Positions 5,353 to 14,004 of a stretch of 64,000 nucleotides of DNA are shown here, piece by piece. The translations under genes and the position numbers were made by a program. Every line of letters starts with the position of its first letter. The first letter of the stretch is position 1. The notes under the pieces are model-generated. The model was not told where the DNA came from and did no database searches. It saw nothing but the letters and a program-made list of their open reading frames with translations. The stretch comes from Blastocatellia bacterium (lineage in GTDB: Bacteria > Acidobacteriota > Blastocatellia > RBC074), in assembly GCA_033763135.1 (NCBI GenBank), contig JANRKY010000148.1, forward strand, positions 2,277-66,276. The letters are read 5' to 3'.

Positions 5353-6301
5353 TGGATGAATCTTTTCCTTGTCGAATCCGCCGCCCCTGATTATCGACGG
5401 TGACCTCCATCGCCCGGGCGGCGACGCCGGCGGCGGCCAGTCGGTCCGTCATGGTCGCGGCGATCCCCGCGCAGTTGCCCGAGGCGAAGGCGATCATCGT
5501 GGAGCCCGCGCCGCTGATGGCGACGCCGAGCAGGCCCGGATGCCTGTGCGTCTCGTCATTGAGTTTCAGCACGTCGCTCAGGCCCGGCGCGAGCGGCGCG
5601 CGATAGGGTTGATGCAGCAGATCCCGCAGCGCCTCATTGAGCAGATCGAACCGCTTCTCGGCCAGCGCGGCCTGCAGCAGCGCCGCGCGCTGCAGGTTAT
5701 AGATCGCGTCGTGGCGCGAGACCATTTTCGGCAGGACGGCGCGCATTCGCGCAGTCTCCATCTCGATCTCGGGGATGCAGACGACGATCTTCACTTCCTC
5801 GGGCCAGGGACGGCGGACCGCAATCAGCGCGCGCCGCTCATTGCCGGAATAGTCGACGCCCTCCCGAACGACGGCAACGACCATCCCGCCGAGCATGCTC
5901 GGCGCCAGATTGTCGCCGTGCCCCTCGAAGTGGAGCGCATAATTGAAGAACTCGTCATGATCGAGCGTCTCTCCCGCGAGCGCCTCATAGACCGACAGCC
6001 CGGCGATGATCGCGCTGCTGCTGCTGCCCAGCCCCCGCGAAAGCGGAATCTCGCTGTCGACGTGCAGGCGCGCGCCGGGAATGCGCCGTTTGCGCTGCTC
6101 GGCGGCGTGAAGCGCCGCGCGAACGATCAGATTCGTCTCGTCCCGGGGCACCTTCTCGGCGCCTTCCCCGGTCGGCACGATCTCGAAACCGCTCTCCCGC
6201 GGCTCCACCCGGATTCGAAGGTGGAGCGAAAGCGCCAGGCCACAGGTGTCGAAACTCGCCCCCAGATTCGACGTGGAGGCTGGAACGATGATCTCGGTCA
6301 T
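5318..6301 (-). CDS. thrB: homoserine kinase
   Basis: 327-aa GHMP kinase with motif [16 protein letters not shown]. The last 10 codons ([10 protein letters not shown]) are encoded by an arm of the CACGAAG palindrome. Confidence 0.85.
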
Positions 6302-6322
6302 AGATAAAAGATGCCGGGCGAC

Positions 6323-7360
6323 TCACGCCCCGATATAGCGAGAATAGAGCGAACGGGCGATGTTCGGATCATCCGTCCCCTTGATGATGCTGCGCGCATC
6401 CGAGAAGACCGTGATCTCGTGCTCTCCCAGGAGAAATTTCAGCAAAAAGCGATTGTAGCTCACCTCTCCCAGATCGCGGAGCTGCGCGGCGAGCAACTCG
6501 AAATCGATCGCGCCGGGCGCGGCCGGGGTGATCTGCACGGCATTCCGGCCGCAGAGCGCGGCGACCATCTGCCCGCCGCGGACGCTGAGATACTCGAAGC
6601 GCCCCTCGCCGCAGGTCGGGCAGTCCGGCATGCGTTCGCGGACATTGAGCCGCGTAAAGGAGTTGAGCCAGAGATCGAACTGCATCAGCGCCCCGTGCAG
6701 CCGATCGAACTGGCCGGTCAGCAGTTTGAGGGTCTCGGCGATCTGATACGACGAGATGGTCGCGATGATCGGCAGGATCACGCCGGCCGTGTCGCACGTC
6801 GGCGACGTCCCGGGCGGCGGCATCTCGGGAAAGACGCAGCGCAGACAAGGCGTCACGCCCGGACGAATCGTCATCTGCACGCCATAGGCGCCGACCGCCG
6901 CGCCGTAGACCCAGGGCTTCCCCAGCTTGACGGCCGCGTCATTGAGCAGAAACCGCACCTCGAAATTGTCCGCCCCATCCAGCACGACATCCACGTCCTG
7001 AATCAGCGCTTCGATATTGGCGTAGTTGACGTCCTTGACGACGGCCTCGACCGCCACGTCCGAGTTGATGCGATTGACGCGCGCGGCGGCGGCCACCGCC
7101 TTCGGAAGCCGGTCGGCGACGTCGCGCTCCTCGAACATGATCTGCCGGTGAAGATTCGACTCTTCGATAAAGTCGCGGTCCACCAGCCGCAGAAAGCCGA
7201 CGCCCGCGCGCGCCAGCATCTCAGCCTGCATCGCGCCGAGCGCGCCGCAACCGATGATGGTCACGCGACTCGCGGCCAGTCGCTCCTGCCCTTGTCTGCC
7301 GATGCCGGAAAAGAGAATTTGGCGGGAATATCTGTCGGGATTGGGAGAAGCTGCATCCAT
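6323..7360 (-). CDS. ThiF/MoeB-family E1-like adenylyltransferase with about 95-aa C-terminal extension
   Basis: 345 aa. The N-terminus reads [33 protein letters not shown] (a Rossmann nucleotide-binding motif). Two CxxC pairs are present (CLRC, CPTCGEG). The C-terminal tail is uncharacterized. Confidence 0.7.
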
Positions 7361-7465
7361 TGTCGATCTTGTGCCTGTACCGCCGCTGAAGGCGGTTTGC
7401 GGGGAGCTGCCGTCCCATCGCCGCGTCGCCGCGTCGCGGGCCGCCTCGCTCCCCGCACCTGCCGT

Positions 7466-8122
7466 CTACTTCGTGGTCTTGATCAGAATTTCGGTCCCGC
7501 GTTCGAGCTTGACCTTGCTGCTGCCCTGAATGTACGTCGAGCCGGCGCCGACGCCGGCGCCGATCGCCGCGCCGATCGCCGCGCCCTTGCCGCCGCCGGC
7601 AATGCCGCCGACGATCGCGCCGAGGGCCGCGCCGCCGCCCGTGCGAACCGCGGTCGTCGTCCCCTTGCTGCCGCTCTTGACGTTGCCCTCTTCATCGACT
7701 TCCTTGACGGAATCCTCGCCATAGACCTTGACGACCTGGGCCGCGGTCGGAATCGTCTCGCCGGTCTTCAGGCGAACCGTGTCGAAAGAGAGCGAGATCT
7801 CGGTCTTGCCCTTCAGTTTGCCCGACTGGTTGATCTTGGCGATATGGCCTTCCACCGTCGCATCGGCATATTTGCTCGGCGTCAGGATGACGGCTCGGAA
7901 CTTGTCGCCGTCGTTCGCGCTCTTGGTGTCGATCTCATCCTCCAACCGGATCTTCATCTCGGTTCCGCGCGGAATGGTGGGCGCAGCCGGCTTCGCGGCC
8001 GCCCGCCGCTTGACCGTGCTCGATTTCGACTTCCGGGTCGTCTGCGCGCCCGCCTCGATCGAGGTCAGCGCCAGAATCACCAGACAGATGACGGCCAGAA
8101 AACGTGTCGATCCCTGATACAT
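7466..8122 (-). CDS. secreted protein with C-terminal glycine-zipper segment
   Basis: 218 aa with an N-terminal signal peptide ([19 protein letters not shown]). The C-terminus is [33 protein letters not shown], a Gly-zipper. Confidence 0.5.
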
Positions 8123-8373: not shown

Positions 8374-9465
8374 ATGCTGAAAAAACTATTTTCGCCCCAA
8401 AATCTGCTCAACTGGTTTCTGATCTTCGTTCCGATCGCCGCGGCGTTGGAGTTTACGCACGCGAATCCGATCGCGATCTTCGCGGCGTCGGCGCTGGCGA
8501 TCATTCCGCTGGCGGGGTGGATGGGACGGGCGACCGAGCATCTGGCGGAGAAGATGGGACAGGGCGTCGGCGGCCTGCTCAACGCGACGTTCGGCAATGC
8601 CGCGGAGCTGATCATTGCGCTGATGGCGCTGCGCAAGGGGCTTTATGATGTCGTCAAGGCCTCGATCACGGGCTCGATCATCGGAAATATTCTGCTGGTG
8701 CTCGGCCTGAGCATTCTTTTCGGCGGGTTGAAATATCCGCGGCAGGTCTTCAACAAGACGGCGGCCATGCTCGGCTCGACGCTGCTGACGCTGTCGGCCA
8801 TCGCGCTGGTGATGCCGGGCGTCTTTCACCTTCTGACGGTCGGAAAACCGAATGCGAACGAACAGGACCTGAGCCTGGAGATCGCCGTCGTCCTGATCAT
8901 CACCTATGTGCTGAGCCTGATCTTCACGCTCCGAACCCACTCCCATCTCTACACCGGCGGCGTGGACGAACACTCCGAGGAAGAGGCAATCGGCACCCAC
9001 GGATGGAGCCAGACGAAATCGGTCTCGATCCTGCTCGGCGCCACGGTCCTCGTCGCCGTGATGAGCGAATTCCTCGTCGGCGCGGTCGAGGCGGCTTCGC
9101 ACCAGCTCGGTCTGACCGAGGTCTTCGTCGGCGTCATCCTCGTCGCAATCATCGGCAATGCCGCGGAGCACTCGACGGCCGTCCTCGTCGCAATGAAGAA
9201 CAAGATGGATCTCGCGCTCAATATCGCCATCGGCTCCAGCATGCAGGTCGCGCTCTTCGTCGCGCCCGTTCTGGTCTTCGCCAGCTATCTCTTCGAAAAG
9301 CCGATGAATCTGCTCTTCACGCCGCTCGAAATCGTCGCCGTCACCGTTTCGGTGCTGATTGTCACCATGATCTCCCAGGACGGCGAGTCGAACTGGATGG
9401 AAGGCGTGCTGCTGCTGGCCGTCTACACCATCCTCGGACTGACCTTCTATTTCCTCCCGGCCTGA
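8374..9465 (+). CDS. Ca2+/H+ antiporter (CaCA/CAX family)
   Basis: 363 aa, polytopic. It has two alpha-repeat GNAAE motifs ([13 protein letters not shown] and [16 protein letters not shown]) typical of cation/Ca2+ exchangers. Confidence 0.85.
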
Positions 9466-9699: not shown

Positions 9700-10467
9700 T
9701 CACGGCGCGACGGCCGCGGCGGCTTTGGCGCGAGCGGCCTTGCTGGCGACCAGTTCCTTCCAGACCAGAACCTCCATGGCCTCCGCCTGTCGTTCCAGCG
9801 ACTCCAGCAGTTCGTCCCGCCGCGACAGCCGCCGCTTCAGATCCGCGGGAATGAACTCGCTCTTCCGCCGCGGCTGAAATTTCAGCAACAGTTCATTCGT
9901 CTTTTCGACCGATTCTTCCACCAGCTTCGTGCGATCGATGCTTGTCAGAATATGGACGGCATGAGAGAGCTCGTGCCCGAGCACCTCGACATACCGCTCC
10001 TCCCGATTCAACTTCTCGAAGGGAACGAACCCATCCGCCCGCGCGACATTGGGCCCGACATACGCCAGATCGATATTGGACAGATTGAGCTTGATCGCGC
10101 CGATGTGCCGCTCGCCCCGCGGATCGGAACGCTCAATGATGAAATTTCCCGCCGTGCAGGTCGCCACCCGGGCGTTTCGCGTCACCTCGACATACACCGT
10201 ATGCCCGCTGGTCTCGATCCATTGCCACATCCCCCACAATGTCGGATGCAGCGGCTGGTGATTCGCATCCACCGCCAGCGCAATCGTCTCGATCGCCTTC
10301 CACCGCGCCAGTTCCTTGCCCGAAAGCCGGGTCGTGACCAACCCCGACGGCTCCGCGCTCGCGGACTCCTTCCACGGAGCCCCCTCCTGCGCCATCGCGG
10401 ATATTGAAAATAATACGGCTGTCAGCAGCGCACATTGCGCCGCAGCCATCCACTGACGCTGCAGCAT
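9700..10467 (-). CDS. secreted hypothetical protein with HExxH motif (putative zinc metallopeptidase)
   Basis: 255 aa with a signal peptide and a HELSHAVH motif. No further family assignment is possible from sequence alone. Confidence 0.45.
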   Translation of the reverse strand: MLQRQWMAAAQCALLTAVLFSISAMAQEGAPWKESASAEPSGLVTTRLSGKELARWKAIETIALAVDANHQPLHPTLWGMWQWIETSGHTVYVEVTRNARVATCTAGNFIIERSDPRGERHIGAIKLNLSNIDLAYVGPNVARADGFVPFEKLNREERYVEVLGHELSHAVHILTSIDRTKLVEESVEKTNELLLKFQPRRKSEFIPADLKRRLSRRDELLESLERQAEAMEVLVWKELVASKAARAKAAAAVAP

Positions 10468-10672
10468 ATGGCATCCTCTGCAAAGCTATTGATTGTCCGG
10501 GGCTGATTTCTTCTGGTGAAGATCGTTTACGTGAATACGTTCGCGGGGGAGCTGACCGTTCGATTATAGTCGAGATCCTCTTTCAGGCGGTACCGTTTTC
10601 TTCAGGAAAATTCCCGCCTCCTCCTGCAAAGAAAGAAAGAGAGGCTCTTTGGGAATTGCCGTGCAACCAGAA

Positions 10673-10845
10673 GAGGTCCCGGTCGCTTACGCTCCCGGTA
10701 CTGCATAGCCGAACGCTCCCGGTACTGCATAGCCGAAGAGATTGATGCGGTACCGGGAGCGTAAGCGACCGGAATATTGTGCAAGCGGCCACGAATAGAG
10801 GTCCCGGTCGCTTACGCTCCCGGTACTGCATAGCCGAAGCCGAAA
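10673..10845. repeat. 38-nt direct repeats (gtcccggtcgcttacgctcccggtactgcatagccgaa, two copies) flanking an inverted copy (ggtaccgggagcgtaagcgaccgg)
   Basis: Direct copies at 10678..10715 and 10801..10838, with a partial duplicate at 10713..10737 and the inverted segment at 10751..10774. The central segment can pair with either flank. Confidence 0.8.
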
Positions 10846-10866
10846 AGAGAAGGCTAAAAAGGAGAA

Positions 10867-11234
10867 GGGCTCGAAGTGCCTCACTCACTTCGAGCCCTGA
10901 TGCGATTCTCACACTTTGAAAGGCTGGTGATCGTTTTTGGAGATTGCCGGTCGGTAGCCTCACTCTACCAACGGCCTCGATCACCGTTCTTGGGACCTTA
11001 CACGCCCTTCCCCACCCAAAGTTCCCGGATCTTTCTGATTTTTTTGGGAGGGCCGCGCCACACTGTCTTCACTGACAACCGACAACCGACAACCGACAAC
11101 CGACAACCGACAACCGGCACCCCCAAAAAGTGTAAGGGCTTGATGGCGCCTCACTCGCCATCAAGCCCAAATGCGAACTTCTTTACGGAAGGACAGTGAT
11201 CATTTGGCCGCTATCGAGTACCCTCACTGTACTC
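10867..11234 (+). ncRNA. candidate structured non-coding RNA / hairpin array: four stem-loops sharing loop CCTCACT (10867..10897, 10946..10975, 11136..11168, 11215..11234)
   Basis: gggctcgaagtg-CCTCACT-cacttcgagccc; gccggtcggtag-CCTCACT-ctaccaacggc; gggcttgatggcg-CCTCACT-cgccatcaagccc; gagtac-(c)CCTCACT-gtactc. The loop is identical while the stems differ yet remain complementary. The transcribed strand is unknown. Confidence 0.35.
11074..11116. repeat. tandem heptamer repeat (CAACCGA)x6
   Basis: gacaaccgacaaccgacaaccgacaaccgacaaccgacaaccggc, in the topA upstream region. The same unit forms the inverted element at 49878..49999. Confidence 0.9.
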
Positions 11235-11460
11235 TCAAGCATTGATCACTTTGTTTTGTAGGCTACACGCCCGACCTCGAAAAAAGTTCCCGGGGGATCC
11301 GAAATTTCTTGATTTTTTTTTATTATTGGACAAAAGAGGGGGGAAGGCTTGAATCGGGGGGAAAAGGCGTGCTATTTGATTCGCCCTTTTGCAAAGGCTG
11401 TGGATCTGTTTTATGTTCTGAGCCGTCGTAAGCGAAAAGAGAATGGAATTGTATTGAACT

Positions 11461-14004
<2,544 letters not shown>

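What the first reader, a model, noticed from the sequence alone, without database searches (positions are those of the whole stretch)
10867..11234. Four stem-loops with identical CCTCACT loop and covarying stems upstream of topA
Within about 370 bp of a 1 kb non-coding region there are four hairpins: gggctcgaagtg-CCTCACT-cacttcgagccc, gccggtcggtag-CCTCACT-ctaccaacggc, gggcttgatggcg-CCTCACT-cgccatcaagccc and gagtac-(c)CCTCACT-gtactc. The 7-nt loop is invariant. The stems differ in sequence and length yet remain complementary. Ordinary REP elements conserve the stem instead. This is the signature expected of a structured RNA, or a single-stranded DNA hairpin, in which the loop is the recognised feature. 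A multi-hairpin protein-titrating sRNA (by analogy with CsrB/RsmZ-type architecture), a riboregulatory leader, or a recognition array for a hairpin-binding protein are all possible. Read on the minus strand the loop is AGUGAGG, an SD-like purine run. I cannot tell from sequence which strand is transcribed. This is the best candidate in the window for something undescribed.
Basis: seen in the sequence. Interest (0 to 1): 0.8.

Follow-up and report, generated by a model that had tools for sequence, protein, structure and literature searches.

The report
Paired small RNAs with GUGAGG loops
The four hairpins are real and belong to two neighbouring genes for small structured RNAs, read on the opposite strand from topA; they are members of a previously undescribed RNA family conserved in one group of soil bacteria (Blastocatellia), and its function is still unknown.

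Summary
The interpretation needs re-framing. The four hairpins are two tandem paralogous copies (about 270 bp apart) of one unit, read on the minus strand. Each unit has a conserved promoter-like box of the ECF-sigma type (GGAACTTT-N13-GCGT). It is followed by a long hairpin capped by an AGUGAGG heptaloop, a conserved single-stranded linker, and a 12-13 bp GC-rich hairpin with the same loop plus a U-tract, which is an intrinsic terminator. A search pattern that did not include the loops, and separate retrieval through the neighbouring protein gene, recovered more than 50 copies from Blastocatellia MAGs and soil metagenomes. The GUGAGG core is kept in 86 of 89 loops. Both stems covary strongly, and G-U pairs outnumber A-C 70 to 8, which fixes the strand. 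The RNAs are not linked to topA. They always sit upstream of a Blastocatellia-specific secreted zincin-like (HExxH) protein gene and a Na/Ca exchanger gene. They are not REP elements, and nothing in Rfam 15 or the searched literature matches them. Most likely they are stress-sigma-driven trans-acting sRNAs whose loops are the recognition element. I could not decide between base-pairing and protein titration. This is a new family of a known kind, of moderate interest.

The parts
11267..11291 (-). Promoter-like box of the B-type sRNA gene: GGGAAC (11291-11286), a 16-nt spacer between GGAAC and CGT, then GCGT (11270-11267). This is the ECF-sigma type, GGAAC-N16-CGT.
   Evidence: One search gives the exact match. 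One search shows the same box at the same distance upstream of all ~45 copies examined. One search finds the motif almost only in front of family members within 1.42 Mb.
11122..11263 (-). B-type sRNA body, about 142 nt. It has a 5' A/C-rich leader and an outer helix (11250-11243 with 11202-11195). Hairpin 1 is 11234-11216 with loop AGUGAGG at 11228-11222. The linker reads GUCCUUCCGUAAAGAAGUUCGCAU. The terminator hairpin is 11168-11136 with loop AGUGAGG at 11155-11149, followed by a U-tract.
   Evidence: Fold (z -3.06). CM R1 scores 146.9 bits. Orthologue in L001 at 7646-7789. Covariation.
11002..11026 (-). Promoter-like box of the A-type sRNA gene: GGGAAC (11026-11021), a 16-nt spacer between GGAAC and CGT, then GCGT (11005-11002).
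   Evidence: A-type copies in other genomes read TGGAACTTTC..GGCGTTAA. The search pattern could not have selected those, yet the box is conserved.
10853..10998 (-). A-type sRNA body, about 146 nt. The outer helix is 10985-10978 with 10933-10926. Hairpin 1 is 10975-10946 with loop AGUGAGG at 10964-10958. The linker carries a third, degenerate motif (GUGUGAGAA) and UCGCAU. The terminator hairpin is 10898-10866 with loop AGUGAGG at 10885-10879, followed by the tail UUCUCCUUUUU.
   Evidence: Fold (z -3.90). The terminator scan flags 10898..10866 on the - strand. CM R1 scores 144 bits. Orthologue in L001 at 7350-7494.
9700..10467 (-). Conserved downstream neighbour ('sec255'). It is a 255-aa protein with an N-terminal signal-peptide-like helix and an HELSH (HExxH) motif, and a zincin-like fold. 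It is not part of the RNA but is always linked to it.
10563..10568 (-). TATAAT -10 box of the sec255 gene's own promoter. A C-rich 5' UTR of about 95 nt follows it.
   Evidence: Seen. The box is conserved in all 18 loci compared. In L090, L091, L110 and L111 it abuts the A-type terminator.

Best explanation
The region holds two tandem, paralogous genes for small non-coding RNAs of about 145 nt, transcribed on the minus strand. They belong to a family conserved across Blastocatellia. The following is shown. Each gene has a conserved upstream box GGAACTTT-N13-GCGT, a long bipartite hairpin capped by a 7-nt loop (A/U/G)GUGAGG, a sequence-conserved single-stranded linker, and a GC-rich terminator hairpin with the same heptaloop and a U-tract. 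The stems covary while the loops are almost invariant. The genes occur as 1-3 copies at one syntenic locus, upstream of a secreted zincin-like protein gene. The following is inferred. The box is a promoter for an ECF-type alternative sigma factor, so the RNAs are made in response to an extracytoplasmic or stress signal. They act in trans as riboregulators. The exposed GUGAGG loops, possibly together with the pyrimidine-rich linker (UCCUUCC, UCGCAU), are the elements that contact their partners. I think the most likely mode is base-pairing with mRNAs, by analogy with sigma-E-dependent sRNAs and with multi-loop-seed sRNAs such as cuckoo/CcsR, RNAIII and sX13. The partner itself was not identified.
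For: Anatomy and strand: The two-unit alignment and folds are. G-U outnumbers A-C 70 to 8 in the stems.

Family: A pattern without the loops (promoter box + GTGATC + TCGCAT) retrieved 35 metagenome contigs. The CM gave 41 hits of 46-105 bits on 21 of them, mostly as pairs. The second (A-type) copy of each pair does not satisfy the pattern. Four loci retrieved only through the neighbouring protein gene also carry the RNAs. These include a divergent single copy, visible on reading L120, with three GUGAGG motifs.

Covariation: In the terminator hairpin 98% of cells are paired and 11 of 13 pairs change on both sides; the score is 0.78 against 0.33 shuffled and at most 0.21 slid. In hairpin 1, 90% are paired and 12 of 12 pairs covary; the score is 0.715 against 0.356. 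For the whole structure on 53 copies, 94.9% are paired.

Loops: 74 of 89 are AGUGAGG and the GUGAGG core is present in 86 of 89.

Promoter: The box sits at a fixed distance upstream of every copy. In 1.42 Mb it is found about 59 times in front of family members and 7 times elsewhere. GGAAC-N16-CGT matches the published consensus of many ECF sigma groups (my own knowledge: Staron et al. 2009; Rhodius et al. 2013).

Independent transcription units: The B-type copy is inverted relative to the A-type copy and sec255 in L115, L118/119 and L122/123.

Not dispersed: There are no further copies in the 64-kb window or in 79 other topA loci.
Against: No expression data were available, so transcription, the 5' end and sigma-factor dependence are all inferred from sequence. 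No ECF sigma gene was found among the 17 window ORFs scanned against Pfam. No target was found. There is no conserved CCUCAC site in 215 kb of family-bearing contigs. Complementarity of either linker to the neighbouring gene's translation-initiation region is not significant (mean z 0.05 and -0.29). Purine-rich loop seeds are unusual, because known multi-loop seeds are C-rich and target Shine-Dalgarno sequences. Strict conservation of a whole heptaloop in two hairpins, one of them the terminator, fits protein recognition at least as well as base-pairing.
Confidence: 0.6

Rival explanations
1. These are protein-titrating (sponge) RNAs. The GUGAGG heptaloops, and the third single-stranded GUGAGG in A-type copies, are binding sites for an as yet unidentified RNA-binding protein. 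The ECF-driven RNAs would sequester it, in the manner of CsrB/RsmZ with CsrA.
For: The identical motif is displayed in every hairpin loop, including the terminator loop. The closing base pairs vary freely, loop size is fixed at 7 nt in nearly all copies, and the number of motifs (2-3) and of genes (1-3) varies between genomes. No base-pairing target was detectable.
Against: The motif lacks GGA, which defines CsrA/RsmA sites. There are only 2-3 sites per RNA, against 5-22 in known sponges. No candidate RNA-binding protein gene lies in the conserved neighbourhood. No mRNA leader with the same loop hairpin was found in 1.42 Mb. Known sponge RNAs are driven by two-component systems rather than ECF sigmas (my own knowledge).
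Confidence: 0.22
2. This is a cis-acting element of the downstream zincin-like gene. The A-type unit would be an ECF-driven leader or attenuator whose terminator is read through under some condition, or its transcription would interfere with the sec255 promoter. The hairpin loops would then be sites for an antiterminator.
For: The A-type copy is always immediately upstream of sec255 and on the same strand. In four loci its terminator abuts the TATAAT box of sec255, and its descending arm supplies a TTGAGC -35-like hexamer.
Against: sec255 keeps its own conserved TATAAT promoter in all loci. Insertions of about 180 bp are tolerated between the RNA and the gene in the window, and between the two RNAs in L113. 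The B-type copy has the same architecture but can be inverted. The terminators are strong (12-14 bp GC-rich stem plus U-tract) and there is no alternative antiterminator pairing.
Confidence: 0.1
3. This is a dispersed DNA repeat (REP/MITE-like), or single-stranded-DNA hairpins recognised on the plus strand with loop CCTCACT.
For: The hairpins are palindromic, and a genuine REP-like element lies right next to them at 10663-10840.
Against: The copies are confined to one syntenic locus across genomes whose neighbouring protein is only 50-100% identical. There are no other copies in 64 kb or in 79 other loci. The stems covary instead of being conserved. G-U outnumbers A-C 70 to 8, which shows selection on RNA pairing on the minus strand. 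A promoter box and a U-tract are conserved alongside the hairpins.
Confidence: 0.02

Closest known systems
Cuckoo RNAs / RSs0680a-d (CcsR) of Alphaproteobacteria (PMC4615179)
   Same: Both consist of 2-4 adjacent hairpins, each carrying the same loop motif, while the stems vary in sequence. Both occur as clusters of homologous copies in a preserved genomic context next to a small hypothetical gene. Both are driven by an alternative (stress) sigma factor promoter.
   Different: The cuckoo loop motif is CCUCCUCCC, an anti-Shine-Dalgarno sequence, in 9-27 nt loops. Here it is the purine-rich, Shine-Dalgarno-like GUGAGG in a 7-nt loop. The phylum differs. Each copy here has its own promoter and terminator instead of being co-transcribed. 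No Rfam family matched at all.
Sigma-E (ECF)-dependent sRNAs MicA, RybB, MicL, VrrA of Gammaproteobacteria
   Same: Both are stand-alone sRNA genes with a GGAAC-type -35 and an ECF-type -10, ending in an intrinsic terminator. Both are expected to be induced by envelope stress.
   Different: There is no sequence or structural similarity. In the known sRNAs the seed is the single-stranded 5' end, not repeated hairpin loops. Dependence on an ECF sigma is only inferred here.
CsrB/RsmX/Y/Z protein-sponge RNAs
   Same: A short motif is repeated in the loops of hairpins with variable stems, including the terminator hairpin, and paralogous copies are present.
   Different: The motif is GUGAGG, not A(N)GGA. 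There are 2-3 copies rather than 5-22. The promoter is not of the GacA/UvrY type. No partner protein is known.
sX13 (Xanthomonas) and RNAIII / RsaE (Staphylococcus) multi-loop seed sRNAs
   Same: Several hairpin loops carry the same short motif, which acts as a redundant seed.
   Different: Those loops are C-rich (CCCC, UCCC) and pair with G-rich ribosome-binding sites. The loops here are G/A-rich.

Membership tests
Stand-alone bacterial sRNA gene (own promoter, structured body, intrinsic terminator) | GC-rich hairpin followed by a U-tract at the 3' end | tested here: met
   flags 10898..10866 on the - strand. Both window copies and nearly all homologues end in a 12-14 bp stem plus UUUUU.
Stand-alone bacterial sRNA gene (own promoter, structured body, intrinsic terminator) | Conserved promoter at a fixed distance upstream | tested here: met
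   GGAACTTT-N13-GCGT lies upstream of every copy. The motif is nearly specific to the family within 1.42 Mb.
Stand-alone bacterial sRNA gene (own promoter, structured body, intrinsic terminator) | Secondary structure supported by compensatory changes | tested here: met
   Between 19 and 23 pairs carry double changes, and no shuffle or slid structure reaches the observed score.
Stand-alone bacterial sRNA gene (own promoter, structured body, intrinsic terminator) | A discrete transcript is detected | not testable with these tools
   No transcriptome data were available.
ECF-sigma-dependent promoter | -35 GGAAC (AAC core), spacer of about 16-17 nt, -10 CGT | tested here: met
   GGAAC-N16-CGT is exact in both window copies and conserved in all homologues. 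It does not fit sigma-54 (no TTGC five bases after the GG element), and no sigma-70 consensus is present (0 sites).
ECF-sigma-dependent promoter | Transcription depends on a cognate ECF sigma factor | not testable with these tools
   No ECF sigma gene was found among the window ORFs scanned. The whole genome was not available.
Csr/Rsm-type sponge RNA | Multiple GGA / A(N)GGA motifs in hairpin loops | tested here: not met
   The loops are (A/U/G)GUGAGG. A GGA arises only by accident at the loop-stem junction of A-type hairpin 1. No Rfam CsrB/RsmX/Y/Z match was found.
REP / dispersed palindromic repeat | Many dispersed copies with a conserved stem sequence | tested here: not met
   There are only the two copies in 64 kb and none in 79 other loci. 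The locus is syntenic across genomes. The stems vary and covary.
Cis-regulatory leader / attenuator of the downstream gene | Fixed orientation and position in the 5' leader of the regulated gene, with no independent promoter for that gene | tested here: not met
   The B-type copy is inverted in several genomes. sec255 has its own conserved TATAAT box. For the A-type copy alone the test is inconclusive.
Cuckoo RNA family | Loop motif CCUCCUCCC in each hairpin | tested here: not met
   The loop motif is GUGAGG on the transcribed strand and CCUCAC on the other strand. No Rfam hit was found. The motif definition is taken from PMC4615179.

The most novel reading that the evidence does not exclude
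The GUGAGG heptaloops are the recognition sites of an unknown acidobacterial RNA-binding protein. The ECF-driven RNA pair would then be the titrating arm of a Csr/Rsm-like post-transcriptional switch with a new sequence specificity, possibly coupled to the adjacent secreted zincin-like protease whose C-rich leader sequesters its own Shine-Dalgarno sequence.
Probability: 0.2. Interest if true: 0.75.

Novelty: new member of a known kind. Interest (0 to 1): 0.5.

Why it matters
To my knowledge almost nothing is known about post-transcriptional regulation in Acidobacteriota, one of the most abundant soil phyla. My literature searches found no paper on sRNAs in Blastocatellia. This finding supplies a well-supported sRNA family with a clear covariance model, a strand, predicted ends and a candidate stress promoter. 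Its repeated, nearly invariant purine-rich loop motif makes a sharp, testable prediction: one partner, either an RNA containing CCUCAC or a protein, recognises all the loops. The promoter box also gives a handle for finding the cognate ECF sigma factor and its regulon in these mostly uncultured bacteria.

Tried and rejected
1. Rfam 15 was searched at gathering threshold on the whole window and at E<=10 on 10400-11500. Only spurious microRNA-like hits appeared, on the neighbouring REP-like palindrome.

2. Synteny with topA was tested. Of 80 topA loci from GTDB genomes, only the closest (L001, 93% identical) has the RNAs. The others have a different gene upstream of topA.

3. Base-pairing with the neighbouring gene was tested. 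Unrestricted duplex folding was uninformative and timed out. An exact-complement search found only generic pairing between anti-SD-like and SD sequences. Short-segment duplex energies against shuffled translation-initiation regions were not significant.

4. I looked for CCUCAC target sites in 215 kb of family-bearing contigs. Apart from the antisense of the RNAs themselves, the only recurrent non-coding site lies in the promoter region of a cation-diffusion-facilitator gene, and I judged it a chance match.

5. I looked for other hairpins with a GUGAGG loop, which could be mRNA targets of a loop-binding protein. None of note was found in 1.42 Mb.

6. I looked for further promoters of the same type or an ECF sigma gene in the window. 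There were none; the other GGAAC-N16-CGT matches lie inside or at the start of long ORFs.

7. A small ORF inside the RNA was considered. I rejected it because indels and compensatory stem changes do not preserve any reading frame (reading).

8. A sigma-54 reading of the box was rejected, because there is no TTGC at the required spacing.

9. Five literature searches found no description of this family.

Full report
**Observation**

The 993-bp gap between the minus-strand gene 9700-10467 and topA (11461-14004, + strand; Pfam Topoisom_bac, Toprim and zinc ribbons) contains the four hairpins exactly as described. CCTCACT occurs six times in the 64-kb window, against 3.95 expected. Four of those six fall within 350 bp, each exactly in the 7-nt loop of a hairpin. 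That arrangement cannot be chance.

**Anatomy**

Repeat analysis shows several short direct repeats spaced 264-274 bp apart (D6, D7, D9). Aligning 10840-11070 with 11110-11345 on the minus strand shows that the four hairpins are two copies of a single unit.

Read on the minus strand, each unit has these parts:
- CCGGGAACTTT, then 13 variable bases, then GGGCGTGTA.
- About 17 nt further on, GUGAUC opens an outer helix that closes with GAUCAC.
- Inside that helix sits hairpin 1, with loop AGUGAGG.
- A linker follows, ending in UCGCAU.
- A 12-13 bp GC-rich hairpin comes next, again with loop AGUGAGG.
- A U-tract ends the unit.

The terminator scan independently flags 10898..10866 on the minus strand. 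Each roughly 150-nt unit folds into the same architecture, with z-scores of -3.9 and -3.1. I call the promoter-distal copy A-type (10853-10998) and the other B-type (11122-11263).

**Organism and relatives**

Eighty topA loci from GTDB species representatives place the window in Blastocatellia (Acidobacteriota). Only the closest one (L001, topA 93% identical) has the two units upstream of topA. There the units and their promoter boxes are conserved, but the spacers between them are unrelated. Several stem positions have changed on both sides, for example GGUAG/CUACC to AAUAG/CUAUU. A covariance model (R1) built from these four sequences finds nothing in the other 79 loci. In the two I read (L003, L008), a different gene lies upstream of topA. 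The link to topA is therefore incidental.

**Family**

I searched the metagenome collection with a pattern that deliberately omitted the loops: GGGAAC-N15-GCGT-N{15,21}-GTGATC-N{60,85}-TCGCAT. This returned 35 contigs. R1 gives 41 hits of 46-105 bits on 21 of them, usually two per contig.

One hit of each pair is B-type, with the near-invariant linker AUCCUUCCGUAAGAAGUUCGCAU. The other is A-type, with linker UUUUCAGUGUGUGUGAGGGUCAUAU. The A-type copies read TGGAAC and UCAUAU where the pattern demanded GGGAAC and TCGCAT, so the pattern could not have selected them. They nevertheless carry both AGUGAGG loops and the promoter box.

Over 45 copies (89 loops), 74 loops are AGUGAGG, 9 are UGUGAGG and 3 are GGUGAGG. 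The GUGAGG core is present in 86 of 89. These 45 copies include 30 different terminator stems and 38 different hairpin-1 sequences.

Counting pairs on loop-anchored, ungapped alignments gives the following:
- Terminator hairpin: 98.2% of cells paired, 11 of 13 pairs changed on both sides, covariation score 0.78 against 0.33 for shuffles and at most 0.21 for slid structures.
- Hairpin 1: 89.9% paired, 12 of 12 pairs covary, score 0.715 against 0.356.
- Full CM alignment of 53 copies: 94.9% paired.

The outer helix (GGUGAUC/GAUCACC) is an exception, because it is conserved in sequence rather than covarying.

**Strand**

Three observations fix the minus strand as the RNA sense:
- The U-tracts follow the long hairpins only on that strand.
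- The conserved box lies upstream only on that strand.
- The stems contain 70 G-U pairs against 8 A-C juxtapositions. A-C juxtapositions are what G-U pairs on the other strand would look like.

**Promoter**

Every copy is preceded, at a fixed distance, by (G/T)GGAACTTT-N13-(G)GCGT(G/T)(T/A)A and an A/T-rich stretch. GGAAC-N16-CGT is the consensus of many ECF sigma groups (my own knowledge: Staron et al. 2009; Rhodius et al. 2013; E. coli sigma-E -35 GGAACTT). No sigma-70 consensus is present, and the spacing does not fit sigma-54. In 1.42 Mb of fetched Blastocatellia and related DNA, the motif is found about 59 times in front of family members and 7 times elsewhere, mostly inside ORFs. No ECF sigma gene was found among the window ORFs I scanned. 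The sigma assignment remains an inference from sequence.

**Context**

tblastn shows that the conserved neighbours are the minus-strand gene 9700-10467 ('sec255') and the convergent Na/Ca exchanger gene (8374-9465).

Loci retrieved purely through four sec255 homologues (50-60% identical) have different upstream genes: namZ, dxr and speA. All have a gene-free gap of 700-1000 bp that contains the RNAs. In L118/119 and L122/123 the B-type copy is inverted. L122 has three copies, one of them partly masked by N. In L120 R1 gave only a weak hit (10.4 bits), but reading the sequence shows a single divergent copy that still has the promoter box and three GUGAGG motifs.

The RNAs are therefore independent transcription units, variable in number and held at one locus. 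sec255 keeps its own TATAAT box in all loci. In four loci that box abuts the A-type terminator.

**Function**

The evidence supports a conserved, structured, independently transcribed RNA whose loops are under the strongest constraint. What the loops contact remains open.

I found no conserved CCUCAC site in 215 kb of family-bearing contigs. Neither linker shows significant complementarity to the sec255 initiation region. No other GUGAGG-loop hairpins, which could mark mRNA targets of a loop-binding protein, turned up.

Two mechanisms remain. The first is base-pairing, with the loops, the linker, or both acting as seeds. This is the commonest mode for stand-alone sRNAs and for all known ECF-dependent sRNAs. 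Its closest architectural precedent is the cuckoo/CcsR family: 2-4 hairpins, the same loop motif, variable stems, a stress-sigma promoter and clustered copies (PMC4615179). The second is titration of a protein, as in CsrB/RsmZ. Against the first, purine-rich loop seeds are unusual. Against the second, there is no GGA, there are few sites, and there is no candidate protein. I rate them at roughly 0.4 and 0.2, within a confidence of about 0.9 that this is a genuine sRNA family. A cis role of the A-type copy on sec255 gets about 0.1. REP, DNA-level or chance explanations are effectively excluded.

**Novelty**

Rfam 15 has no match, and five full-text searches found no description. This is a new family of a known kind, namely alternative-sigma-driven sRNAs with repeated loop motifs. 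Its interest comes from the phylum, where to my knowledge riboregulation is essentially unexplored, and from the unusually strict, purine-rich heptaloop displayed even on the terminator. A new sRNA family without a known function is not in itself surprising, so I score interest at 0.5.

Noticed in passing
window 10663-10840: A REP/MITE-like palindromic element lies between the A-type sRNA and the sec255 promoter. It has three arms of GGTCGCTTACGCTCCCGGTAC(TGCAT), two direct and one inverted, which form 28-bp inverted repeats. It is absent from the orthologous spot in L001. The same element occurs in L113 at 6298-6374, between that genome's two sRNA genes. It also explains the spurious Rfam microRNA hits.
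   Followed up: partly
window 11071-11122: A tandem repeat of the heptamer CAACCGA, about seven copies, lies in the spacer between the two sRNA genes. The corresponding spacer in L001 is unrelated.
   Followed up: no
[not shown]
   Followed up: partly
window 10468-10575 (- strand); L090-L116 equivalents: The sec255 5' UTR is C-rich and G-poor. It carries 2-4 copies of a (Y)CCCCG(Y)U motif. In most relatives it also has an anti-SD-like CCUCCCU 4-6 nt upstream of the SD AAGGAGG, which could sequester the ribosome-binding site. The UTR might be a Rho-loading or riboregulated leader. In L090, L091, L110 and L111 the TATAAT box directly abuts the A-type terminator, whose descending arm supplies a TTGAGC -35-like hexamer.
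   Followed up: partly
window 10978-10985 / 10926-10933 and 11243-11250 / 11195-11202 (- strand): The outer helix is conserved in sequence rather than covarying. Its 5' strand AGGUGAUC is the exact complement of the canonical 16S rRNA 3' tail GAUCACCU, and its 3' strand GAUCACC is identical to that tail (E. coli sequence from memory; the 16S rRNA of this organism was not available). In B-type copies the 3' strand is followed by UCCUUCC, which is also anti-SD-like. This may be a coincidence or a functional mimic.
   Followed up: no
window 11380-11460 (+ strand): The topA upstream region (..CCTTTTGCAAAGGC..TTATGTT..) is conserved in L001, L003 and L008 even though the upstream gene differs. It is probably the sigma-70-type promoter and leader of topA. 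It is divergent from, and about 100 bp away from, the B-type sRNA promoter.
   Followed up: no
L107 5975-6030 (also L098, L110): The conserved sequence TTGAAATCTTGCCTCACGCAAAAAAGTTGCGTTAAGATCA lies upstream of a His-rich cation-diffusion-facilitator gene. It looks like a promoter with an inverted-repeat operator. It contains CCTCAC and GATCA, but I judged it a chance match to the sRNA motifs.
   Followed up: partly
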